This document shows positions 2,744 to 40,004 of a stretch of DNA of 41,680 nt, piece after piece. This DNA comes from a virus. Its lineage: Duplodnaviria > Caudoviricetes. Numbering within the stretch: the first letter of the stretch is position 1; each line of letters starts with the position of its first letter. Under the pieces are notes generated by a model. It ran no database searches, had not been told where the DNA came from, and saw nothing but the letters and a program-made list of their open reading frames with translations. The translations under genes and the position numbers were made by a program. The stretch is from positions 1-41,680 of IMG/VR virus record IMGVR_UViG_3300037604_000083; one strand, 5' to 3'.

Positions 2744-2772
2744 ATTATAGGGCCTTTGGCCCTTTATGTACA
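2744..2772 (-). promoter_or_regulatory. Leftward sigma70 promoter with operator AGGGCC-N3-GGCCCT
   Basis: Minus strand TGTACA-N17-TATAAT; palindrome at 2749-2763. Confidence 0.6.
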
Positions 2773-2814
2773 GCCCTATAGAGAAAAAATCCCCATATAA
2801 ATTAAATTATAACA

Positions 2815-2843
2815 TTGACTTTAAGGGCCGTTGGCCCTATTAT
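2815..2843 (+). promoter_or_regulatory. radC promoter with operator AGGGCC-N3-GGCCCT
   Basis: TTGACT-N17-TATTAT; palindrome at 2824-2838. Confidence 0.8.
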
Positions 2844-2894
2844 ACTCACATGCCCGGCGATAACCGCAAGGGCGCAACCCGAAAGGAAGATAGC

Positions 2895-3332
2895 ATGAAC
2901 GACGATCAGATAGTCCAAAAAGCTCGCGAAATCCTCGCCGCGAGAATGTGTAAAGGTGCCGTGATAGGCTCGCCATCGGACTCAGTAGATTTCTTGGTCT
3001 TACAACTGGCCGAGCACGAGTCCGAGGCCTTCTGCGTCATCTACCTTAACTCACAGAACCAAGTGATTGAGTTTGCAGAAGAGTTCCGAGGCACTATTGA
3101 CGGCGCGGCCGTCTATCCCCGCGAGATTGTGAAAGCTGCACTGAGCAAGAATGCCGCCGCCGTCATCTTTGCGCACAACCACCCTTCCGGCGTCGCCGAG
3201 CCTTCTGCGGCTGATCAACGCATCACCGACCGGTTGATCGCTGCGCTGGGCTTGATCGACGTACGCGTGCTCGACCACATCATCGTGGCAGGGAACAACA
3301 CGTTTAGCTTTAGAGAGCATGGCCTTTTATAG
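2895..3332 (+). CDS. radC: RadC-like JAB domain protein (short MGE form)
   Basis: E..., VYPREIV, AHNHPSG...S..D, VLDHIIV; AGGA RBS before ATG 2895. Confidence 0.92.
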   Translation: MNDDQIVQKAREILAARMCKGAVIGSPSDSVDFLVLQLAEHESEAFCVIYLNSQNQVIEFAEEFRGTIDGAAVYPREIVKAALSKNAAAVIFAHNHPSGVAEPSAADQRITDRLIAALGLIDVRVLDHIIVAGNNTFSFREHGLL

Positions 3333-3366
3333 GCCATGCTACACCCCCCAACCTGGAGATTTAGAC

Positions 3367-3657
3367 ATGACAGAGAAACGAGCCGAATACAAATCAGGCG
3401 CAAGCCCTGGAACGCTTCCCAGCGCTACACTTTTGCGCTTCTCACATCCAGAGTACGAGCACCCTACCCCGGCCGATGTCCGCACGCTCAAGGATATTAG
3501 TGGATTGACTGGCAAGGAACTGTGTGAAATGGCCGGCGTGCTAGACGCACGAACGTGGCGGCGATGGTCGCAAGAATCGGACAAGGCCGGAGCCAGGCCT
3601 ATTCCATATTCGACGTGGCGGCTGCTGTTGCTTGAGCTGGGGATCGTAGACTACTGA
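3367..3657 (+). CDS. KorC-like HTH transcriptional repressor
   Basis: PTPADVR...GLTG...RTWRRW...IPYSTWRLL...GI parallels IncP KorC as recalled (PTGAEIR...GLTG...RTVRRW...IPYAAWAIL); GGAG RBS. Confidence 0.7.
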   Translation: MTEKRAEYKSGASPGTLPSATLLRFSHPEYEHPTPADVRTLKDISGLTGKELCEMAGVLDARTWRRWSQESDKAGARPIPYSTWRLLLLELGIVDY

Positions 3658-23042: not shown

Positions 23043-23314
23043 CGCGTACAGTCATACAGCCGAGGCAGGCCGCCCAGTGAGAGTGAGGCCAACGCCGTGG
23101 CATCGAGCGTGATGCCGGCAGCCATGGCGCCAGACAATGCCGGCGAAGCGTCGAACTCGGCATTCAGTAGTTGTGTTACATGAAGCTCTGCTGTGAATCT
23201 CGTTGTGATTTCGACGCCGGTCGAACAAAATTGACCGACGGTCTCGACAATCTCACCCGCGAACAACCAATAGGCGTTATTTGCAATGGCGCTTGCAGCA
23301 ATGCCCTGGCTCAT
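23039..23314 (-). CDS. Hypothetical putative virion protein
   Basis: ATGA-coupled on both sides. Confidence 0.55.
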   Translation of the reverse strand: MSQGIAASAIANNAYWLFAGEIVETVGQFCSTGVEITTRFTAELHVTQLLNAEFDASPALSGAMAAGITLDATALASLSLGGLPRLYDCTR

Positions 23315-24960
23315 GACGATATTTTTACCGTGCCGTTATCGTTCCAAAAAACATTGGGGTCTGTTGGCTGCGACGTTGGCAACGATGCCGTCATGTTGCC
23401 ACCTAGAACAGTAAAGCCGTTAAAGTAGGCTGCGATTCGGTCATAACGTATGATGGGAATTCCCAGAAATACGCCGTTTGTGTTAAAAACGCCGGCGATG
23501 TTGGCGTGCCCTGTTACGTCGAGGGTTCCGGCCACTGTCGCATCGCCCCCGATATCCAAATCTTTAGCGGTAGCAACGTCCTCAGTAAATAGCATTTCGC
23601 GCAAAAAGAAGGCGACGCCGGTTGCCAAGTAATTGCTAACCATCCAGGGCGTAACGATGTCGTCATCCCAATCAAGGTCAGCGGCAATACCGCTGAATAT
23701 GTAAGTGATTTCTTTCCAGCGTGCCACGCCGCCGCCGGTGTTGTTGTTCGTGCAAACAAATATTTTTTCGGTGGTGGTGTTTATCCAGAGACTTCCCCGG
23801 CTGTAACCCCTAAAAATGCCGTCCCCGCCTGCAGGGTCGACTGTGGCGTTCAAATTGTTCTGGCGCGTCGTCGGTGTATCCTTAGTGCCCAGGCCAGCAA
23901 TGTAACGATCTGCTGTATCACGCCCGAGGCGGTTGTCGTCGTCGCCTGCGTAATGATAAGCATCGACCTTGCTATATCCCCGCGTGGAAATGCACCGCAA
24001 ATCATTGGCCGTGGCCTGGTCTACCAGTTTGTGCCCTTCAAAATCCGGAAAAAATCCAGCGGCCGACTCCATAAGTAACCATTGCGCTTTACCCTTGCCG
24101 CCGAACTTGGTTTCGAAGTTGTTTTTTACCGCTAGAAAGTTGTCGCGGTATTCGATTGCACTCGTGTCGTTGATTGCTTCCGTGCCGCCCTGACTCACAT
24201 ACCAAATGTGCGGATAATCAACGTCCGCCAGTTCTGGCGATGCCAGGGCCTGCGCGTAGACCGCCGAAAGTGAAACTTCGAACGGTGCATCTTTCATGAA
24301 GCCAGTGATGGGCTCGCCACCGCGGCCGCCGCCGACCATATGCACGATACAGCCTGTTACGCGCTGCAATCGGTCGCAAAATGCCCAAAACGAATTTGCA
24401 TATCCATCGCCCTGCAGCCCGATGATGTAATTCGGCTCGGTTCGATCAAAATTTGTTACCCGGTTCGGGTCAGCTACTTGCCAGCTATACGTTGTGGGGT
24501 TGTTAACATCGGGCGTTTGCATTTCAAAAACAAACGGGTTTGCTACCATTGGGGTTGCAGCCTGCGAGAAGCCCACGAAGTTGCTTTGACCCCAGCCAAA
24601 AACAAGAATTTTGCCGCCAGGCTTAACCTCTCGGTTAGGAAAATACTTAAACAGGTCGTCCGCATTAAACGTCACTGTGACGATCTTGTTGCCAGCCGAA
24701 AAGTTAACCAGGTTGCCGCTGTTGCTTGAGGTTTCAACTGTGCCGGTTGCCCGCTCCAGCACCGTGCCGCTGGAACTCACTGCACACACACCCGTCTCGA
24801 ACTGAACGGGCGGCGCCTCAGACTCTATCCGATACGCAACAATAGTGCCGTTAGGGATGCCTGACATGCTGCCAGCACGCTCCCAGGTGCCGGAGATCGT
24901 CGCGTTACCCGTTCCCGTGACCGTTGTGCGCCCGCCTCGATTGTTGTACAGCGTCGGCAT
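23311..24960 (-). CDS. Fibre-like protein with SGNH/sialate O-acetylesterase-like domain
   Basis: N-terminal fibre anchor (TTVTGTG...SSNSGNLVNFSAG.K); GQSN, QG and DxxH (DAYH) motifs. Confidence 0.75.
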   Translation of the reverse strand: MPTLYNNRGGRTTVTGTGNATISGTWERAGSMSGIPNGTIVAYRIESEAPPVQFETGVCAVSSSGTVLERATGTVETSSNSGNLVNFSAGNKIVTVTFNADDLFKYFPNREVKPGGKILVFGWGQSNFVGFSQAATPMVANPFVFEMQTPDVNNPTTYSWQVADPNRVTNFDRTEPNYIIGLQGDGYANSFWAFCDRLQRVTGCIVHMVGGGRGGEPITGFMKDAPFEVSLSAVYAQALASPELADVDYPHIWYVSQGGTEAINDTSAIEYRDNFLAVKNNFETKFGGKGKAQWLLMESAAGFFPDFEGHKLVDQATANDLRCISTRGYSKVDAYHYAGDDDNRLGRDTADRYIAGLGTKDTPTTRQNNLNATVDPAGGDGIFRGYSRGSLWINTTTEKIFVCTNNNTGGGVARWKEITYIFSGIAADLDWDDDIVTPWMVSNYLATGVAFFLREMLFTEDVATAKDLDIGGDATVAGTLDVTGHANIAGVFNTNGVFLGIPIIRYDRIAAYFNGFTVLGGNMTASLPTSQPTDPNVFWNDNGTVKISS

Positions 24961-24964
24961 AACC

Positions 24965-25597
24965 TTACTCGGTAAATGACATTGATAGGCCCTTCAGCCG
25001 CCCGACCATAAGCCTGCACGCGGTCAGCGTTTCTTCGTCGAACCCATCTGGGTGGTGTGTGGCGAAAGAAACATACTCGATCGCCCGGCTCTCTGTGCCC
25101 GGCACGTGATAGCTTGCCAGGTGCGCCCAAAGCGAATCAGTGACGCCCTCTCGCTTGTAGATGCTTGCCGCGAGCGAGTCGTCTGACAGTTTGTTAACCT
25201 CAAATCGCTTGTAACCGCTGCTCACTACACTGCGCAGCTTGTCGATATAGTCAGTATCCAGCTCGACGTGTATATACAACATCGGCGTCTGTCCGACCTC
25301 CCGGATCTGGTGAACCGCGGTCGTCCACTGCGGCGATAGCTCGCCATTCCAAGCCCGTAGTACCATGAAACGGTCAAGCCGCGTTTTGTCGATCGCGTCG
25401 GTCACCATCTCGCTGATTTCTGCCCACTCACCGACTAGCTCAGTAAACCGCAATGCAGCGCGCTGAAAAGTCACCTCGTTTTCAGCCTGAGTTCTGCCTG
25501 CCCGCTCTATCTTCAACTTAAGCCAAGCGATTCCGGCAGTGAGAAATATGCCGATAACGCTGCCAATCGCGGTTAGCATTTCGGCACTCATAAACAT
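24965..25597 (-). CDS. Single-TM protein with soluble GAF-like domain (possible T4 T-like holin)
   Basis: First late gene; N-terminal TM followed by an alpha/beta domain; function inferred. Confidence 0.6.
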   Translation of the reverse strand: MFMSAEMLTAIGSVIGIFLTAGIAWLKLKIERAGRTQAENEVTFQRAALRFTELVGEWAEISEMVTDAIDKTRLDRFMVLRAWNGELSPQWTTAVHQIREVGQTPMLYIHVELDTDYIDKLRSVVSSGYKRFEVNKLSDDSLAASIYKREGVTDSLWAHLASYHVPGTESRAIEYVSFATHHPDGFDEETLTACRLMVGRLKGLSMSFTE

Positions 25598-25606
25598 CCG
25601 TATCGT

Positions 25607-25643
25607 AAAAAGCCCGCACGGCGTATGCAGTCGCCGGCGGGCT
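25607..25643 (-). terminator. Late-leader terminator 3
   Basis: AGCCCGC...GCGGGCT-TTTT with inner CGGCG/CGCCG stem. Confidence 0.6.
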
Positions 25644-25688
25644 ATCATCAGGCCGCCCGCCCTTCCCAAGGCACGTACCTAATTCATT

Positions 25689-25826: not shown

Positions 25827-25852
25827 AAAAAAACCCGCTCAAAGGCGGGTTT
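25827..25852 (-). terminator. tR'-like terminator 1
   Basis: AAACCCGC-CTTTGA-GCGGGTTTTTTT. Confidence 0.8.
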
Positions 25853-25889
25853 ACAGATGCTTTAGGGGCAAAGCCCCAGATTTCCATAA

Positions 25890-25918
25890 AATCTACGCTT
25901 TCACTCCGGAGTTGTCAA
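25890..25918 (-). promoter_or_regulatory. Late promoter pR'-like
   Basis: TTGACA-N17-TAGATT overlapping the Q stop codon. Confidence 0.8.
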
Positions 25919-26280
25919 CAGTGTTCCGGGTGCATTATGTAATCGATCGCGGTTTCTGCGCTCGCCAATAACCTGGCTGTGGTTTCGTAGGACTCGTTGA
26001 TTCTTGCTCTCACTCTGTATAACGGCATGCCCTCCAGGTAGTACAGGACCAGCACTGTGCCCTGGTCCTCGCAGCGTGACATCAATCGACACACTGCCCT
26101 GTCCACCCGCTCAGCCTGCTCGGTGTCAATTGCAGCTGAGGGCAGAGAGCTGCCCAGCAACCGCCTGAAGGGAGTCTGGCTGGGATATCCCTTCGCCTCA
26201 CCAGATTCTATCTTGCGCCACCTGGCCCACTCTGCGAGCAGCCACTGTACCTGTGTCGTCTGTGTCATTGGTTGCCCCAT
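25915..26280 (-). CDS. Antitermination protein Q
   Basis: LLAEWARW...GYP...VDRAV..L...LVLYY; immediately upstream of pR' and tR'. Confidence 0.85.
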   Translation of the reverse strand: MGQPMTQTTQVQWLLAEWARWRKIESGEAKGYPSQTPFRRLLGSSLPSAAIDTEQAERVDRAVCRLMSRCEDQGTVLVLYYLEGMPLYRVRARINESYETTARLLASAETAIDYIMHPEHC

Positions 26281-26302: not shown

Positions 26303-26407
26303 TTATATGCTGCAGCTGATACCTATGCCCGCCAAAACCAGCAGTGCGCCAACAAAGACGATGGCAATAATGGTGCCGACGATTACCAGTGTTTCCATAT
26401 TGCCCAT
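26303..26407 (-). CDS. Small single-TM peptide (34 aa)
   Basis: GGAGG RBS; MGNMETLVIVGTIIAIVFVGALLVLAGIGISCSI. Confidence 0.55.
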   Translation of the reverse strand: MGNMETLVIVGTIIAIVFVGALLVLAGIGISCSI

Positions 26408-26425
26408 CACCCACCCTCCGCAGCG

Positions 26426-27049
26426 CTAAGGCTCACCGTTGTTGTACTGATTTCGGAAGACGTCGCAGCTCTCGCCCTTTGGGCAGTTCCGGTTGCGGAT
26501 GTTCAGCCAGTAGTTATGGTTTCGCTCGAGTGAGCAGTAGCCTTTGATACGATATTGGGCCCACCTGACGACCGTGCTGCTCGTGCCTTTGTCCTGGCAG
26601 GCAGGTGCGGGTATCGGATCACCCCCCTTGCACTGGGATATCCATACCTCGCGCTGGATGCCCGAAGTGCCTGTGGTGGCGGCAAAGCTCAGCTGCCCGG
26701 CGTAGTTCTTGCCCCGTGTGGTTTTGAAGGGGTACGCATACGTGCGATTGCCTGACAGCTCAATCCGGGTCTGCCCTGGTGGTTTCTCCCAGGACAACGC
26801 TGCTCGAGCAATGGCACTGCTGTCCGGCTTGCAATCCCGCTGCACAGGATCTGGCTGAGGTGTCGGCCTGGGGTCTGGTTCTGGGGCCGTCGACTGATTC
26901 TCGGTGATTACAATCTCGCAGCCCTCGCATGAAATCGTTGCAGTGTCACCGTCGCGCTTTACCTGTAAATCAGCAAGCGTGAACGTCGCGGCGATGCTCA
27001 GCGAAAGGACAACCGCAACAATCAATATCAGTGGGTCTTCGTTTCTCAT
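26426..27049 (-). CDS. Secreted Cys-rich protein with Pro-rich linker
   Basis: Hydrophobic N-terminus, PEPDPRPTPQPDP linker, several Cys residues. Confidence 0.75.
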   Translation of the reverse strand: MRNEDPLILIVAVVLSLSIAATFTLADLQVKRDGDTATISCEGCEIVITENQSTAPEPDPRPTPQPDPVQRDCKPDSSAIARAALSWEKPPGQTRIELSGNRTYAYPFKTTRGKNYAGQLSFAATTGTSGIQREVWISQCKGGDPIPAPACQDKGTSSTVVRWAQYRIKGYCSLERNHNYWLNIRNRNCPKGESCDVFRNQYNNGEP

Positions 27050-27087
27050 GTCTGATCCCTCTCAGTTAATGGCCTTCTGGCCCTTGG

Positions 27088-29118
27088 TTAGCACCCCACT
27101 GGTACATACTTGGTATCGTCTGCCGATTTCGCCGCCTGCGTTTTCTCAAACTGCTGTTCTGGCGTGCCCTTCTTCAGCAGCTCCGCAGCCCTGCGCTCGC
27201 TGTGCCCGCCATGACAGCCCAAGCAGGTCAAGGTTTCACCGGCAGACAGTGGCGAGATTCCGCGGGCTATCTTGTTCAGGCCCTTGTCATAGCCAAAGTG
27301 AAAAAAGGGCGCTCCACATGGAACCTTCAGTCTCACTGAGCCGTCCTCTTGAATCTGGGCAAAGTAAGTGCCTGTAGCCTTGGCGGGGCCTTCCTTGGTC
27401 GGCACCCTGTCCCAGTGATCAAAGGTGTCCACGCCAAAGTATTTGAGCTTTTCCGGTAGTTCGTCTTGGTGGACAGAATTGCCCTGAAAGGCTACGCGCA
27501 GTTCCTTGCGCTTTTCCGGCGTCCTGTTGCGGTTAGTGGGGTTTTCGTCAAGCTCGCCTTGCTTGGCGTTCACCACTTGCAAAAAGCATTCCTCTGCCGG
27601 TGGCTTGATCTTGGCTATCGCTGGCGCTGGGATGCCGTACAGGTCGCTGTAGGGGCCTGCATACTGAGCGTCGAAGGCGTGTACGTCCAAGTCACAGCCT
27701 GCAATGCACCGCGTCTGCTTTTCGTCGAACGGGTCTAGCACTTGGAGTACCAGATTTTCGTTGATCTGCTTCTTGCAGGTGGGCTCACCTCCCATTGCCT
27801 TCACCGTGGCCATGCCGGGGCCTGCTACGCGATAGCACCACCCGCGTGAGGTAGTCGATCCCCATCGCTTGCCGTCCTTGTCTGGGAGTGCAAAGGGGTT
27901 GCCGCTGCGGCCTGTTGCCCTGCCGTTTTTGTGATACTTGGGCAGGCTTTGGTCTTGATCCTGCGCCCACGGGGTCAGCACCTGGAGCGTACAAGGGGCG
28001 AACTGGCCTGATCCCTGCTCACTGCTCTTGTACTGACTGCCGATCATATCTGACTGCCGGGAGCAGCCCTCAGCATCCCAGTTGGCCTCAAAGCCCAGCG
28101 TTACCCCATTGGGGCCTATGCTGTTGGATCGGTAGTAGCTGCCTACTGCGATGTAATCAGCCCACAACTCGCCTATACCCCGCAAACCCTTAATCTTGGT
28201 TGATCCCTCACCCCGGCGTAGTGGGTCTAGTATGTCCCTTACCAAATCCCATGTTTTCAGCGTAGGCGAGCCATGAGCGCCCAGCAGGGCATGATTCATG
28301 GCCTTGCCGTTAATGTCCCGGCAATCCAGCCACCATTGATTCTGTGGCGTGCTGCCAAACTCTCGCGGTGCCTCACCATGCCACGACGAATAGCAGATCA
28401 AGCCGTTGCTCATGACTTCAGGCGTCATGACAAAATACTGGTCAGGCGTCAGGTTGTACCAGTCAACCAGCTGTCCCTTGTCCAGCGCCGCCCGCCATAG
28501 CTGGGTAGCCGGGAACTGGTAGAAGTTGCGGCCCTGTGTGCTCATTGGCGGATAGGTGCCTGCCCTGGTGCTGGCGAATACCAGCAGGTCATTACTTGCC
28601 CAGTCCGGCTGTCGGTGCCTGCCCTTTTCGCCCTCGGTCGCGTTCCAGCACTCGCCGCCGATCTCACATATCCAAATGTCAGAATCTGTCGGGTCGAAAG
28701 TCCATAGGCCGGAAATCATTGGGCCGTTCTCAGCCTTTACGGGTATCTTGGGCGCGTCTTTCGGGGCGGTGAATAGGGTAAATGCCACCCGCTTACCGTC
28801 GGGTGACATTCGGGCCTCTTGCGCTGCGCAGACTTCCTCAGAGGTCGTGCAGTTGTACAGCGTGGTCACTGTGCAGTCGGCCGCTTGATGCATGACGTCA
28901 TGCTCAGTCGTGCGCCAGACGTTGCCTATGTCCGTTGTGAGTTGCCAATTTGCCCCATCGTCAATATCAAACTGGCGCGGGTCTGCTGGATCCGCCTTGA
29001 CCGGGGTTGTGTGCCGGGGCTGCTGTGTGTAGATCAGGGGTTCGCATTCCTTGGCCACTACTGGCCCTGCGAGTGAAAGCAGTAAAATCAGCGCCAGGGA
29101 TGGGAAATTAATCGGCAT
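27088..29118 (-). CDS. Secreted HzsA-related beta-propeller/heme c protein
   Basis: Signal peptide (..VVA-KE); PD40/TolB-like SPDGKRVAF; DGS...VP...PF....D...GE..TCLGCH. Confidence 0.75.
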   Translation of the reverse strand: MPINFPSLALILLLSLAGPVVAKECEPLIYTQQPRHTTPVKADPADPRQFDIDDGANWQLTTDIGNVWRTTEHDVMHQAADCTVTTLYNCTTSEEVCAAQEARMSPDGKRVAFTLFTAPKDAPKIPVKAENGPMISGLWTFDPTDSDIWICEIGGECWNATEGEKGRHRQPDWASNDLLVFASTRAGTYPPMSTQGRNFYQFPATQLWRAALDKGQLVDWYNLTPDQYFVMTPEVMSNGLICYSSWHGEAPREFGSTPQNQWWLDCRDINGKAMNHALLGAHGSPTLKTWDLVRDILDPLRRGEGSTKIKGLRGIGELWADYIAVGSYYRSNSIGPNGVTLGFEANWDAEGCSRQSDMIGSQYKSSEQGSGQFAPCTLQVLTPWAQDQDQSLPKYHKNGRATGRSGNPFALPDKDGKRWGSTTSRGWCYRVAGPGMATVKAMGGEPTCKKQINENLVLQVLDPFDEKQTRCIAGCDLDVHAFDAQYAGPYSDLYGIPAPAIAKIKPPAEECFLQVVNAKQGELDENPTNRNRTPEKRKELRVAFQGNSVHQDELPEKLKYFGVDTFDHWDRVPTKEGPAKATGTYFAQIQEDGSVRLKVPCGAPFFHFGYDKGLNKIARGISPLSAGETLTCLGCHGGHSERRAAELLKKGTPEQQFEKTQAAKSADDTKYVPVGC

Positions 29119-29200
29119 CGCGGTATTCCTCGATAAGGTCACACAGCCGGTGTATCGCTTCAGCCAGGTGCTCGATGGCTTCGATGGCGCGTTCAATCAC
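29108..29200 (-). CDS. Small helical peptide (30 aa)
   Basis: GTG start overlapping the ninG stop; MIERAIEAIEHLAEAIHRLCDLIEEYRDAD overlaps the next start. Confidence 0.45.
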   Translation of the reverse strand: MIERAIEAIEHLAEAIHRLCDLIEEYRDAD

Positions 29201-29832
29201 GAGCCCACCCCCATTGCTTCCAGCTCCCTCACCCGAAATGCACAACGCGCTCTGAAGCGCTTAAGGTCCTGCCAGCACCAGTCGGTAATACCGGTGAAGT
29301 GCTCCAGGTAATCAATGCGCTGCGATCCCACCCGCAATCCAAAGCGATCGATCAGTCCCTGCTTGTATCCACGGGTGTACTGGTTGCCCTCAATGTTCCC
29401 GCTCAGGTCGCAATTACACAGCTCCAGGCACTGCAGCGCGGTGTTGGCGCGGGAGTACCTCAGCTCCGATCGAGCACCCACGGTCTTGTAGTGCCCGCAA
29501 GACCAGGTGGCGTTCTCCATGCCGCAGGAAATGCACTCAGGCCTCAGCCCGCGCCGCTGGAACCAGTGCAGCTCTTCGAGCACCCGCATGCGGTTGAAGA
29601 CTCTTTGAGTCAATCGATGTTGTGACGACAGCGCGTCTTTGGCCGATGATCCGCTCAGGCGATAAGCCGTGGACGTCCCCATGTTCTCGTCAGCAAGCCG
29701 GCGGGCCGCCACTTTCATGCGCGTGAAATCCACCGTGCAATCAAACCTGCCGCACACTTTCTGGAAAGAATCACGAGGGCTGAACGCGCCACCACACACG
29801 GCGCACTGCTTGGCTTTTCTACTTGCCAGCAT
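29197..29832 (-). CDS. ninG: NinG/Rap family recombination endonuclease
   Basis: C.VC...F......QKVC, CISCG, GHYKTVGA..ELRY...N...QC...CN...SGN. Confidence 0.9.
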   Translation of the reverse strand: MLASRKAKQCAVCGGAFSPRDSFQKVCGRFDCTVDFTRMKVAARRLADENMGTSTAYRLSGSSAKDALSSQHRLTQRVFNRMRVLEELHWFQRRGLRPECISCGMENATWSCGHYKTVGARSELRYSRANTALQCLELCNCDLSGNIEGNQYTRGYKQGLIDRFGLRVGSQRIDYLEHFTGITDWCWQDLKRFRARCAFRVRELEAMGVGS

Positions 29833-30250
29833 CGCGCTTCGCCTCCACATGCAGCAGCTCGTCCATCCAGGCGCGCGCCGGCCGCAAGTGATCCCGGCTC
29901 GAAGAGTCAGCGAACAGAGTGATATACCGGATCACGTGCGCAGCAGGCCCCTCAATGCCGTTGGCTTCACAATACTGCTCAGGGGTAACGCGAGATTCCC
30001 AGCGGGGCATGCTTACCTCCAGGCGCTGCTTCTGGCCGCGCAGCACGTAGGATTCGTTTTCCTCGATGAACTGTATGAAATGGCTGGCCTTCTCCAGGTC
30101 AATCAGGCCCTGCTTCCTGGGGTAACGGGTGACGTACTTGATCACTGAGCCCTCGCAGAAGCCCATGCGGTGCGACATGGCAAATTCCACAGGCTGGATT
30201 GCCAGGTCTTTGTAGTGACCACCCGCGACCTGTTTATCCAGGGCGCTCAT
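29819..30250 (-). CDS. DUF3310 domain protein
   Basis: QVAGGHYK...IQP.EF...G.VIKYV.R...K.G..DLEKA. Confidence 0.88.
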   Translation of the reverse strand: MSALDKQVAGGHYKDLAIQPVEFAMSHRMGFCEGSVIKYVTRYPRKQGLIDLEKASHFIQFIEENESYVLRGQKQRLEVSMPRWESRVTPEQYCEANGIEGPAAHVIRYITLFADSSSRDHLRPARAWMDELLHVEAKRDAGK

Positions 30251-30666
30251 GCGGTGCGTTCCACCCACGCCTTGACCGCGTCTTCATCCCACGTCAGAGG
30301 CCGAACATTGCTCAGTGGCTTCGGGAAACCCTCCATGCGAACAATGTTTCGGGCGCCCTGCTCGGTCTTTCCGAGCAACTTTGCCAGGCCAGGCATGCGC
30401 ACCACCCACCGCCCGGCGATAAACTCCCTGGGAGGAAAAATGGCCTTGCCGAACTTCTCCAGCGTCGCTGCGCAAGTAGGGTTGAAGCTGGGCAAACTGT
30501 CTCGCTCGCAGGTGCTGACGGCATGGGAGGTGATCTCACCACCCCGGGACAGATACTCTCGGGTCTGGCGCTCGATCTCTTCGCGCTGCCGGGTCTTCAG
30601 AGTCGTTGACGGTGGCGGCGGCCCCGGAAATCTCGATACTCGAATCACGTTGTCTTCACTGATCAT
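30247..30666 (-). CDS. Hypothetical protein with C-terminal AlpA/Xis-like HTH
   Basis: EYLSRGGEI; GFPKP......WDEDAVKAW. Confidence 0.65.
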   Translation of the reverse strand: MISEDNVIRVSRFPGPPPPSTTLKTRQREEIERQTREYLSRGGEITSHAVSTCERDSLPSFNPTCAATLEKFGKAIFPPREFIAGRWVVRMPGLAKLLGKTEQGARNIVRMEGFPKPLSNVRPLTWDEDAVKAWVERTA

Positions 30667-38586: not shown

Positions 38587-38814
38587 ATGAGCAAGCCGAA
38601 ATCCTGGCACGTTTTCAAGCACGAATATCTCGACCGGCCCAGGAACATCCGAACCGCCAAACTGTGGCTGGAGAACGGTACGATTCGCGGCAAGGCCATC
38701 AAAAATGAACACGGCGAAGTTGTTGACGTGCTGGTCGATGTCGATCACTGGCGCGCGAGCTTTAACCAGAGCGAATGCGACCTCGAATCTGAGGCGCTTG
38801 AACTGCTCGTATGA
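38587..38814 (+). CDS. Excisionase-like protein
   Basis: Small, upstream of int; RT...W...G.I.G motif. Confidence 0.55.
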   Translation: MSKPKSWHVFKHEYLDRPRNIRTAKLWLENGTIRGKAIKNEHGEVVDVLVDVDHWRASFNQSECDLESEALELLV

Positions 38815-38828
38815 GGGGGGTAGCTTTG

Positions 38829-40004
38829 ATGCCAGATAACAAACGGAGCATCGACATGAGCGTGTGCCTGCACACAGGCAAGCCCCTGCCTGACAACCTG
38901 GTGAACGACAACCGCAAGCGGCCCAACGTCTATCGATACAAGCGGCCAGACGGGACGTACAAGTACATCCGCAAGCCCTATGCACAAGCATGCCTCTTGG
39001 CTGAAATGGCCAACAGCAAGCGCGAAGCGAGCCCCATGTCGTCTAAATCTACCCTCTACTGGTGTGGGCAATACATCGAGTGGATGGAATCCCAAAATCC
39101 CGAACTACTGGCGAAGCGGGGCTGGGTGGATCGCAAGGCCATGTTGAGAAAGTTTGCTGGCGAGTTCCCGGTGCTTCGCGAGGCCACCCTGGCAACCCTG
39201 TCCACCTGGTGGGACGCGCTCACCTACGACCAGCAGCACTCGCGCCGATCTGTGCTCAGCCAGTTTTTCCAGTGGTGCATGTCCAAGGGCGTGGCCAAGC
39301 AAAACCCGTTCAACACATCGGACGCCCTGCCCCACTTGATCGAGAAAAAGAAACCCGCCAAAAGACGCCGGCCGATCAACAACATGGCTGAGTTTAACGC
39401 GATCTATGAGCATGCGGAGGACTATGTCCAGGTTGCAATGATGATATCGCTCACCACCACCATGCGCGCCGGCGACGTCGCCGCGCTCAGGTTTAGCGAT
39501 GTGGTAGACACCCCCCAGGGCAAGAAGCTCTGCAGGACAATCGCCAAGTCTGCAAACCAGAGGGGCGCCATGGCCGCCACCCACGGCGGATGGAATCTAT
39601 CCCGGCACGTCAAGCTGGCCCAGGCGATCAACCACGGGCGAAAGCTCGCAATGATGCGTCCAGACTCACCCCCATACATCGTTAACAAGCGGCCGCAGCG
39701 GCGGCGCATTCGGGCGGGTTGCGATAACGTCTACCAGGTCACCAGCAAGGATCTGTCCAGGGGGTTCACCAAGGCAGTCGCAGCAGCTGGTCTATGGGAG
39801 AACTTGAAGGATGCCACACCACCCACTTTCCACGAGGTCCGCGGGCTGGCGATAGACTTGCTCTTAAAATCGGGCATCGACATCAAGCAAGTGCAGCGCC
39901 TGGCTGCACACACCGACGAATCCATCACCAGCGGCTATACAGCGAACCATCCGCCAGCCTATGTTGACCTGGGAATAGTTGTCAATGATGAGGTGCTGCG
40001 ATGA
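38829..40004 (+). CDS. int: Tyrosine recombinase/integrase (lambda Int-like)
   Basis: N-terminal YRYKRP arm-binding-like region; MRAGD, K, FHEVR, AAH, ITSGY. Confidence 0.92.
   Translation: MPDNKRSIDMSVCLHTGKPLPDNLVNDNRKRPNVYRYKRPDGTYKYIRKPYAQACLLAEMANSKREASPMSSKSTLYWCGQYIEWMESQNPELLAKRGWVDRKAMLRKFAGEFPVLREATLATLSTWWDALTYDQQHSRRSVLSQFFQWCMSKGVAKQNPFNTSDALPHLIEKKKPAKRRRPINNMAEFNAIYEHAEDYVQVAMMISLTTTMRAGDVAALRFSDVVDTPQGKKLCRTIAKSANQRGAMAATHGGWNLSRHVKLAQAINHGRKLAMMRPDSPPYIVNKRPQRRRIRAGCDNVYQVTSKDLSRGFTKAVAAAGLWENLKDATPPTFHEVRGLAIDLLLKSGIDIKQVQRLAAHTDESITSGYTANHPPAYVDLGIVVNDEVLR

What the first reader, a model, noticed from the sequence alone, without database searches (positions are those of the whole stretch)
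26303..29200. Phage-encoded secreted heme-c beta-propeller (HzsA-related) module in the nin region
Seen: a 676-aa protein between ninG and Q has a signal peptide, PD40/TolB-like repeats, many Cys residues and a C-terminal DGS..VP..PF...GE..TCLGCH segment. It is followed by a secreted Cys-rich 207-aa protein and a 34-aa TM peptide, and preceded by a coupled 30-aa ORF. Established: CxxCH is the c-type heme attachment motif, and this domain order is that of hydrazine synthase alpha-related proteins, which also occur with unknown function in non-anammox bacteria. Inference: this is a phage-borne periplasmic redox/heme module, translationally wired into the delayed-early transcript rather than an autonomous moron. 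I know of no described phage example.
Basis: partly seen in the sequence, partly recalled or inferred. Interest (0 to 1): 0.85.

Follow-up and report, generated by a model that had tools for sequence, protein, structure and literature searches.

The report
Phage-borne hydrazine-synthase-like heme enzyme
This bacterial virus carries a gene for a likely exported, one-heme protein predicted to fold like the alpha subunit of the anammox enzyme hydrazine synthase; related genes recur in many unrelated phage genomes, where they likely act on the infected cell's surface or surroundings during lytic growth rather than make hydrazine.

Summary
The 676-aa gene (27088-29118, minus strand, between ninG and Q) is real. 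It is a true HzsA relative: its AlphaFold model (pLDDT 90) best matches hydrazine synthase alpha (Z 29; residues 56-639), covering the propeller and heme-alphaI domain but not the second heme domain. CxGCH is invariant. It belongs to a well-supported one-heme clade (57 sequences). Of 12 loci with DNA, 10 have phage genes (lambdoid, Mu-like, podovirus-like) and 2 are too short to tell. Two are prophages in Halieaceae, whose chromosomes hold the closest two-heme relatives. Two other lineages sit in phages independently. His282 aligns with the HZS zinc ligand Cys303 and co-occurs with a second His after CxxCH, suggesting a His/His version of the odd alphaI site (inferred). The four-gene module is not supported: the 207-aa and 34-aa neighbours reassort in close relatives, and the recurring partner is an esterase-like domain absent here. 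It is not hydrazine synthase (no beta/gamma subunits, no Tyr591). Best guess (0.4): an exported lytic-phase heme enzyme remodelling surface or matrix glycans. Heme binding, expression and substrate are untested. My searches found no paper on a phage example.

The parts
27088..29118 (-). HzsA-related one-heme protein P0001 (676 aa): signal peptide, beta-propeller, heme-alphaI-type domain
29053..29118 (-). Likely Sec signal peptide, residues 1-22 (hydrophobic core, VVA before the likely cut; read by eye)
   Evidence: 52 of 57 clade members have an N-terminal hydrophobic stretch
27643..29046 (-). Beta-propeller, about residues 25-492, TolB/HZS-alpha type
   Evidence: VIA Z 24-25 to TolB over model 21-492; Z 29.2 to 5c2v_D
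28273..28275 (-). His282 (GAH), aligned with HZS-alpha Cys303, the zinc ligand
   Evidence: alignment llgah/IYGNC; 55 of 57 in clade, 173 of 175 overall
28129..28137 (-). Tyr328-Tyr329-Arg330, conserved propeller motif, candidate active-site residues
   Evidence: 57, 57 and 55 of 57
27115..27606 (-). HZS_alpha middle (heme) domain, about residues 505-668
   Evidence: Pfam PF18582 at 587-636, sub-threshold; 21 of 25 alignment members hit it at E<=0.05; profile to 5c2v_A
27202..27225 (-). CLGCH heme-c motif (632-636) followed by His639
29108..29200 (-). 30-aa ORF coupled to ninG and overlapping the start of P0001; relatives diverge at 29139
   Evidence: no family hit
26426..27049 (-). P0002, 207-aa likely exported protein (8 Cys, Pro-rich linker, likely beta-rich C-terminal domain); neighbour, not a fixed partner
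26303..26407 (-). 34-aa hydrophobic peptide; travels with Q in related contigs
29197..29850 (-). ninG (context)
   Evidence: Pfam PF05766 E 1.8e-23
25915..26280 (-). Q antiterminator (context)
   Evidence: phrog_79 E 6e-13
25831..25918 (-). pR'-like promoter (TTGACA-17-TAGATT) and tR'-like terminator (context)

Best explanation
The gene encodes a one-CxxCH relative of hydrazine synthase alpha that is likely exported to the periplasm, likely heme-loaded by the host Ccm system, likely made during lytic growth from the delayed-early transcript, and likely acts as a stand-alone heme enzyme on an organic cell-surface or matrix substrate, most likely a glycan, which would help the phage by altering its receptor or freeing progeny. 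Shown: ORF, motif, phage context, clade, loss of the second heme domain, conserved residues, Halieaceae lysogens with CcmF. Predicted: fold. Inferred: export and heme attachment (about 0.9); a non-canonical alphaI-type site in which His282 and the CxxCH His bind a metal and His639 ligates the heme, leaving an open face (about 0.55); enzyme activity (about 0.85); lytic-phase expression here (about 0.75); glycan or surface substrate (about 0.4, the weakest step). In relatives the enzyme comes with an exported esterase-like (GxSxG...D...H) module; this phage lacks it and would rely on the host's copy or work alone.
For: Fold: AF2 mean pLDDT 89.9; Foldseek top hit 5c2v_A E 1.3e-13; VIA Z 29.2, rmsd 3.4, 459 aligned, model 25-676 on chain 56-639. 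Selection: H282, N260, R313, Y328, Y329, R330, E350, D389 and CxGCH are kept in 55-57 of 57 clade members that are only about 30-50% identical; 21 of 30 listed allele differences inside the gene are synonymous, against 23% expected at random (a partial list). Site: H282 aligns with Cys303; His282 and the second His co-occur in 73, are both absent in 14 and split in 1 of 88 locus ORFs. Phage clade: SH 100 in FastTree, 57 of 175 rows, SH-aLRT 100 in IQ-TREE, 14 of 43 rows. Host: prophages in two Halieaceae genomes; 9 of 56 other window proteins hit the G204 prophage; CcmF over cut-off in G204, G005, G001. Substrate hint: esterase-like module fused in 13 of 57 clade and 14 of 48 Halieaceae-type rows, or as a nearby gene in 8 loci (motif-based, best Pfam chlorophyllase E 0.0018); host neighbours are GSDH-type dehydrogenases, sulfatases and hydrolases, with polysaccharide genes at L043, L044, L089, L099 and an acyltransferase-type cluster at L116/L120/L124/L037; tail-region proteins of these phages carry glycan-acting domains (SASA, weak; GH5).
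Against: No heme, expression or activity data. Most chromosomal neighbourhoods are not polysaccharide clusters and vary widely. The window lacks the esterase-like partner. His639 is at +3 from the CxxCH His whereas HZS Tyr591 is at +4; 6 of 57 have the His at +2 and 3 have none. The two His mark largely one large clade against another, so their co-occurrence is not many independent events. Hagglund et al. 2025 (PMC12758564, sections 7-8) found a canonical heme site in the non-anammox homologues they modelled. Only 9 of the 57 clade rows are tied to DNA context; the rest are unplaced. In the Mu-like prophage and podovirus L002 the gene lies in late or end-of-genome positions where lysogenic (moron) expression is not excluded.
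Confidence: 0.4

Rival explanations
1. A periplasmic scavenger of reactive oxygen or nitrogen species (catalase/peroxidase-like, or NO/hydroxylamine-consuming) that protects the infected cell or released virions in algal habitats.
For: The homologous HZS alphaI heme is five-coordinate, catalase-like in ligation and handles hydroxylamine without net electron exchange (bioRxiv 2023.01.22.525020 passages). Loss of the second heme fits chemistry that needs no electron relay. Near-identical DNA is held by pond, algae and aquatic metagenomes (four further runs of studies P2 and P4 laid).
Against: No nir, nor, nos, hao or cytochrome c peroxidase gene was seen among the scanned neighbours of host copies (selected ORFs only). 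It does not explain the recurrent esterase-like partner. A 650-aa propeller is costly for simple detoxification.
Confidence: 0.25
2. A classical auxiliary metabolic gene: it boosts the host's own periplasmic breakdown of an organic nutrient (ester, lipid or sugar) during infection, doing the same job as the chromosomal two-heme paralogues.
For: Both identified lysogens also carry chromosomal paralogues (G204 three matches, G005 two). Close homologues occur in a subset of Halieaceae (55 of 301 at E<=1e-20) and in none of 400 other sampled genomes of the order at E<=1e-40. Neighbours are catabolic: P450, SDR, sulfatase, TonB receptors, GSDH.
Against: The phage clade has lost the second heme domain that all 48 Halieaceae-type rows keep, and has longer branches, which suggests a changed rather than copied function.
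Confidence: 0.2
3. A non-catalytic decoy or inhibitor: the truncated protein binds the partner or substrate of the host's two-heme paralogue (or a receptor) and blocks it, for example for superinfection exclusion.
For: C-terminal truncation that removes the relay heme; hosts carry the intact paralogue.
Against: Candidate catalytic residues are as conserved in the phage clade as in host copies. Two other phage lineages keep both hemes (L039, L068), and 13 of 57 clade members keep the hydrolase-like module.
Confidence: 0.1
4. A phage hydrazine synthase subunit, i.e. an anammox auxiliary gene.
For: Top structure and profile match is HZS alpha.
Against: Tyr591 and Cys303 are not kept, heme alphaII domain is missing, identity is 12-14%, no NF052339 hit for P0001 and relatives score 18-48 bits against a cut-off of 800, no hzsB/hzsC-like gene in the window or among scanned neighbours, and the hosts found are Halieaceae, not Brocadiae.
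Confidence: 0.02
5. A neutral hitch-hiking piece of host DNA.
For: The nin region is mosaic and the gene swaps in and out.
Against: One old clade spread over several phage types, strong residue conservation, synonymous excess, GC3 0.676 like the phage core genes (0.60-0.75).
Confidence: 0.03

Closest known systems
Hydrazine synthase alpha subunit (HzsA, Ca. Kuenenia stuttgartiensis, PDB 5C2V/5C2W chain A; NCBIfam NF052339)
   Same: Propeller plus middle c-heme domain in the same order (VIA Z 29.2 over chain 56-639); CxGCH motif; a potential metal ligand at the Cys303 position; exported.
   Different: 12-14% identity; His in place of Cys303; His at +3 instead of Tyr591 at +4; no heme alphaII domain; no beta/gamma subunits; phage-encoded; probable aerobic gammaproteobacterial host.
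Non-anammox HZS-alpha homologues (Pfam PF18582; clades I-IV of Hagglund et al. 2025, PMC12758564)
   Same: Heme-binding exported homologues of unknown function; some of that paper's clades also lack the second heme site.
   Different: The paper's clades were chosen for a neighbouring beta-gamma gene and lack both Cys303 and Tyr591 equivalents, with a predicted canonical heme site. This subfamily stands alone, has GxH and CxGCHx(1-2)H, pairs with an esterase-like module and is phage-borne. 'phage', 'viral' and 'Halieaceae' occur 0 times in its main text.
Chromosomal two-heme paralogues of Halieaceae (Halioglobus, Haliea; undescribed)
   Same: 30-34% identity over the full length; same conserved residues including His282 and CHGCHDGH; same optional N-terminal hydrolase-like module.
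   Different: They keep a second CxxCH 55 residues downstream and a C-terminal domain, lie among metabolic genes and evolve more slowly.
Viral nitrogen-cycle auxiliary metabolic genes (nirK, norB, amoC, glnK, focA, nirA; PMC8115048)
   Same: Metallo-enzyme genes of host origin in aquatic phage genomes.
   Different: Those are 57-70% identical to enzymes of known function and were found on single scaffolds (passages); this is a divergent, truncated, c-type heme clade of unknown reaction spread over several phage types.
Exported cargo of lambdoid phages (bor, lom, O-antigen conversion genes; late-region cargo released at lysis) - recalled, from no call
   Same: Exported accessory proteins in variable slots of a lambdoid genome; L039 carries its copy directly after a Q-like gene.
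   Different: None that I recall is a c-type cytochrome; here the slot is upstream of Q in the nin region.

Membership tests
HZS-alpha-like superfamily (PF18582 with propeller) | HZS_alpha middle domain with CxxCH | tested here: met
   P0001 alone is sub-threshold (18.9 vs 26.6 bits), but close members pass (P0008 33.9, P0027 33.8 bits); profiles hit 5c2v_A at E 5.7e-5 and 1.6e-21
HZS-alpha-like superfamily (PF18582 with propeller) | N-terminal TolB-type beta-propeller packed with the heme domain | tested here: met
   Predicted model; Foldseek and VIA top hit 5C2V over both domains, TolB next
HZS-alpha-like superfamily (PF18582 with propeller) | Export signal | tested here: met
   Hydrophobicity scan only: P0001 2.7; 52 of 57 clade members pass; 4 misses look N-terminally truncated, 1 scores 1.75
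c-type cytochrome | Covalently attached heme | not testable with these tools
   Motif invariant; CcmF present in both lysogen genomes; needs heme stain or mass spectrometry
Hydrazine synthase alpha subunit (HzsA proper) | Tyr591 proximal ligand four residues after the CxxCH His | tested here: not met
   HZS CSGCHYGSY aligns with CHGCHDGHS; P0001 has Ser at +4, His at +3
Hydrazine synthase alpha subunit (HzsA proper) | Cys303 zinc ligand | tested here: not met
   His282 at this position (local stretch E 0.57, whole hit E 0.004). PMC12758564 notes Cys303 is not universal in anammox bacteria either
Hydrazine synthase alpha subunit (HzsA proper) | C-terminal bis-His heme alphaII domain | tested here: not met
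   Protein ends 45 residues after the start of its only CxxCH; structure match ends at chain residue 639
Hydrazine synthase alpha subunit (HzsA proper) | NF052339 score above 800 bits | tested here: not met
   No hit for P0001 at E<=0.1; relatives 18-48 bits
Hydrazine synthase alpha subunit (HzsA proper) | Adjacent hzsB/hzsC (beta-gamma) genes | tested here: not met
   No other CxxCH protein among 57 curated window proteins; no CCP/MauG family among scanned neighbours
HZS-type non-canonical alphaI site (works-like claim) | CxxCH His diverted to a metal, downstream residue ligating iron | tested here: inconclusive
   Alignment and co-occurrence support it; no model with heme or metal, no coordinates available
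Autonomous moron | Own promoter and terminator | tested here: inconclusive
   No sigma-70-like site between ninG and Q and only a weak hairpin inside the gene (2 promoter-like sites in 7.9 kb vs 2.8 by chance); genes overlap; no RNA run available
Alpha/beta-hydrolase (partner module in relatives, not in the window) | GxSxG nucleophile elbow with Asp and His; hydrolase fold | tested here: inconclusive
   G167-S169-G171 and H280 invariant in 33 rows, D251 in 90% or more; Pfam chlorophyllase best E 0.0018 in 3 of 33; no PDB profile hit; not folded

The most novel reading that the evidence does not exclude
Phages of several unrelated types have captured, at least three separate times, a c-type heme enzyme with a His/His version of the hydrazine-synthase alphaI active site. 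One lineage became a phage-specific one-heme enzyme that is exported during infection to chemically remodel the host surface or matrix: an undescribed class of phage enzyme, and a stand-alone model for the chemistry from which hydrazine synthase arose.
Probability: 0.3. Interest if true: 0.9.

Novelty: new variant of a known kind. Interest (0 to 1): 0.75.

Why it matters
Phage-encoded c-type cytochromes that depend on host periplasmic maturation are, to my knowledge, hardly described (recalled; searches found no paper on a phage HzsA-like gene). Recurrence in temperate, transposable and podovirus-like phages implies a general benefit that is not yet understood. The function of non-anammox HzsA homologues is an open question (PMC12758564). 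A soluble, single-chain, one-heme member with no obligate partner and a phage phenotype to assay makes it directly testable. It also warns that automatic 'hydrazine synthase' labels on viral contigs would be wrong as evidence of viral anammox genes.

Tried and rejected
No hit for P0001 in PHROGs, single-sequence PDB search, 50,697 GenBank phages by tblastn or the first IMG/VR scan; BFVD gave only generic propellers, TMq at most 0.31. The IMG/VR scan with P0005 confirmed no relative. P0002: no homologue among near-length proteins (longer or shorter forms not searched), single-sequence AF2 failed (pLDDT 33), atlas gave unnamed clusters only (feature score 0.90; structure TM 0.55). I ran no complex prediction, because the report makes no binding claim and P0002 has no alignment; P0001-P0002 binding is therefore untested. 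Expression: no RNA holder listed, which is no evidence either way. Contig depths were not used to rank genes. ARAGORN's tRNA-Leu at 28385-28477 (antisense, inside P0001) has no Rfam support at E<=1; rejected as a false call. The longer in-frame TTG start (29196, 702 aa) was rejected: the ATG at 29118 has the SD and is followed by the hydrophobic stretch. No close capsid relative in 301 Halieaceae genomes (best 44%, 8 of 301), so the host is inferred from early genes, not shown. Direction of transfer was not settled: the phage clade sits in a polytomy with Halieaceae rows, and host copies lie within about 1 kb of tRNA genes in 5 of 40 genome loci scanned (L104, L108, L115, L118, L125). Earlier findings: none by sequence or place. 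My notebook says 10 window genes are shared with the G204 prophage; one search shows 9 besides P0001. Supplements of PMC12758564 were not read and could list further homologues.
Full report
Setting. The window is a whole IMG/VR provirus record (41,680 bp) with lambdoid gene order: CI/CII-like genes, a replication initiator, nin genes, Q, a pR'-like promoter and tR'-like terminator (25918-25831), then lysis, head and tail genes. The finding lies between ninG (29197-29850) and Q (25915-26280), all on the minus strand.

Observation. The four ORFs are as described. ninG overlaps a 30-aa ORF by 4 nt; that ORF ends 11 nt inside the 676-aa gene, which has its own SD. GC and GC3 of P0001 (0.577, 0.676) match the phage core. 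The scan found no sigma-70-like promoter between ninG and Q. Co-transcription in the delayed-early, lytic-phase operon follows from lambdoid biology (recalled) and is inferred, not shown; no RNA holder was listed.

What the protein is. Pfam hits on P0001 alone are sub-threshold. 24 homologues were found, and their profile hits only HZS alpha in the PDB at a clear E-value (5.7e-5; 1.6e-21 with 68 sequences). The ESM atlas returns HZS_alpha clusters at 0.95. The AF2 model is confident (pLDDT 89.9, pTM 0.89). Foldseek ranks 5C2V first (E 1.3e-13). VIA gives Z 29.2, rmsd 3.4 over 459 residues, model 25-676 on chain 56-639: propeller plus heme-alphaI domain, without the C-terminal heme-alphaII domain.

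The heme site. In HZS alpha the CxxCH His587 binds zinc together with Cys303, and Tyr591 ligates the iron (PMC12758564 section 8; bioRxiv 2023.01.22.525020 passages). The family's GAH aligns with HZS GNC, putting His282 on Cys303 (numbering offset). CxGCH is followed by a second His at +3 (48 of 57) or +2 (6 of 57), none in 3. Among 88 locus ORFs both His are present in 73, both absent in 14 (the CLGCHE type) and split in 1; this is mostly one clade against another. N260, R313, Y328, Y329, R330, E350 and D389 are kept in 55-57 of 57. I infer an enzyme with a His/His version of the alphaI site. This differs from the homologues in PMC12758564, which lack both residues and were modelled with a canonical site. 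No model with heme or metal was made.

A phage clade. The profile search found 147 representatives at E<=1e-30. Of 206 near-full-length rows, 175 remained after removing near-copies at 90%. 57 one-heme rows, including P0001, form one clade (SH 100; SH-aLRT 100 on a 43-row subset). Twelve distinct loci of this clade have DNA (partial genes placed by best hit): the window; L002, a 36.6-kb IMG/VR phage, after an endolysin; L004, after Erf, Gam and SSB; L036, before a Dda helicase and DNA polymerase; L064 and L142, after a DNA polymerase and near virion genes; L128, beside terminase genes; L130, a Mu-like prophage; L136/L140, a lambdoid prophage; L005, with an HNH gene only; and L003 and L038, too short to tell. 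None lies among host metabolic genes. 48 of the 57 tree rows have no context. Two more phage-associated proteins lie outside the clade and keep both hemes: L068, in a virion gene module, and L039, directly after a Q-like gene and before lysis genes. AU tests reject joining them to the clade (p 7e-15 and 0.003). A second small one-heme group (7 rows) is separate; its two loci lie in polysaccharide clusters.

Host. 34 of 45 genome loci are titled Halioglobus, Haliea or Halieaceae. They are two-heme genes. 55 of 301 genomes of that family match, and none of 400 other sampled genomes of the order at E<=1e-40. Two family genomes carry the one-heme form in prophages (G005, G204) plus chromosomal paralogues, and both have CcmF. 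Nine of 56 other window proteins hit the G204 prophage (RadC-like 60%, Rep 49%, integrase 34%), where the gene also sits in the nin region. A Halieaceae-like host is therefore likely, not shown. Two hemes are ancestral on the tree, but the direction of transfer is open: the clade is in a polytomy with host rows, and some host copies sit beside tRNA genes, one at the same tRNA-Pro(GGG) that flanks the G204 prophage.

Not a four-gene module. P0002 has no detectable relative. In contigs of related phages from two studies, P0001 alleles (about 90% identical) run on into other sequence at 27058/27077 (X6, X7). P0002 is preceded by other sequence at 27085-27089 (X2, X3, X7), the TM peptide at 26407 (X6, X7), and the 30-aa ORF diverges at 29139 (X2, X3). 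21 of the 30 listed differences inside P0001 are synonymous, against 23% at random (only 40 of 439 differences were shown). The recurring partner is another one: a roughly 400-aa exported module with GxSxG, Asp and His, fused in 13 of 57 clade rows and 14 of 48 Halieaceae-type rows, or a nearby gene in 6 host-type and 2 clade loci, with fragments in L130. It is not in the window. Its hydrolase fold is a motif-level inference.

How it most likely works. The protein is likely made in the lytic phase, exported, heme-loaded by host Ccm, and active in the periplasm or after lysis. The alphaI reaction in HZS needs no net electron exchange, and alphaII has no assigned role, so losing the second heme is compatible with a working first site. 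For the substrate, the esterase-like partner, host neighbours (GSDH, sulfatases, hydrolases, several glycan clusters; no nitrogen-cycle genes among those scanned) and glycan-acting tail-region domains tilt me to an organic surface or matrix substrate (0.4). Rivals are ROS/RNS scavenging (0.25), nutrient catabolism (0.2), a decoy (0.1), neutral cargo (0.03) and hydrazine synthesis (0.02). Unchecked earlier notes on cellular HzsA-like genes near glycan functions prompted the glycan test and are not counted as support.

Literature. PMC12758564: abstract and sections 7-8 read, term search. bioRxiv 2023.01.22.525020 and 2026.02.25.707902: passages. PMC8115048 and PMC9978346: passages; neither reports a viral hzs gene in what I saw. 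Other papers: search listings only. Searches for a phage HzsA-like or CxxCH auxiliary gene returned 0 papers or listings with no relevant title. The library omits most subscription papers.

Verdict. This is a new, phage-adapted variant of the HZS-alpha-like superfamily, not hydrazine synthase and not a fixed multi-gene module. Interest 0.75: recurrent phage capture of a c-type heme enzyme is surprising and makes an open question testable, but heme, timing and substrate remain unmeasured.

Noticed in passing
L068:9269-12082 and L039:8117-12775: Two further phage-associated HzsA-like proteins with both hemes and signal-like N-termini: one inside a virion gene module (SU10-type portal, capsid, adaptor), one fused to the hydrolase-like module directly after a Q-like gene. 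AU tests reject a common phage clade with P0001.
   Followed up: partly
L083:8152-9444, L064:6116-7363, L003:3-632, N-termini of P0008/P0012/P0028: An unannotated exported family of about 430 aa with GxSxG, Asp and His (37 relatives), fused to or beside HzsA-like genes in both hosts and phages; likely an alpha/beta-hydrolase.
   Followed up: partly
L104:8784-12433, L108, L115, L118, L125: Chromosomal two-heme copies lie next to tRNA genes; L104 is at the tRNA-Pro(GGG) after pheST-ihfA that also flanks the G204 prophage, so some host copies may have been delivered by mobile elements.
   Followed up: partly
L095, L101, L102, L111, L115, L122: Several MAG copies of the two-heme gene are in two or more ORFs; these may be long-read frameshift errors or real decay.
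   Followed up: no
window 23311-24960 (-): 549-aa late protein with a weak SASA (sialate O-acetylesterase) match (E 0.00086, below cut-off), placed before the lysis genes; a possible receptor-deacetylating tail protein. The G204 prophage has a GH5-like protein in the same region (L136:4054-5205).
   Followed up: no
window 30247-30666 (-): Phage gene with a SutA RNA-polymerase-binding domain above the Pfam cut-off (E 7.7e-8), also present in the G204 prophage; a possible host-transcription modulator.
   Followed up: partly
window 38811-40004 (+) and record ends: The integrase is internal and the record starts and ends within the early operon; the longest contig listed for P0001 is 49,956 bp, so about 8 kb trimmed as host may be phage, or the record is permuted.
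   Followed up: no
window 2766-3657 (+): RadC-like gene and a small HTH-like gene at about 60% identity to the G204 prophage, at the end of the early operon in both.
   Followed up: partly
window 24965-25669 (-): First late gene after pR': an N-terminal hydrophobic helix plus a domain of unknown family (phrog_29276 E 0.0038).
   Followed up: no
window 28385-28477 (+): ARAGORN tRNA-Leu call antisense inside P0001; no Rfam support, taken as false.
   Followed up: yes
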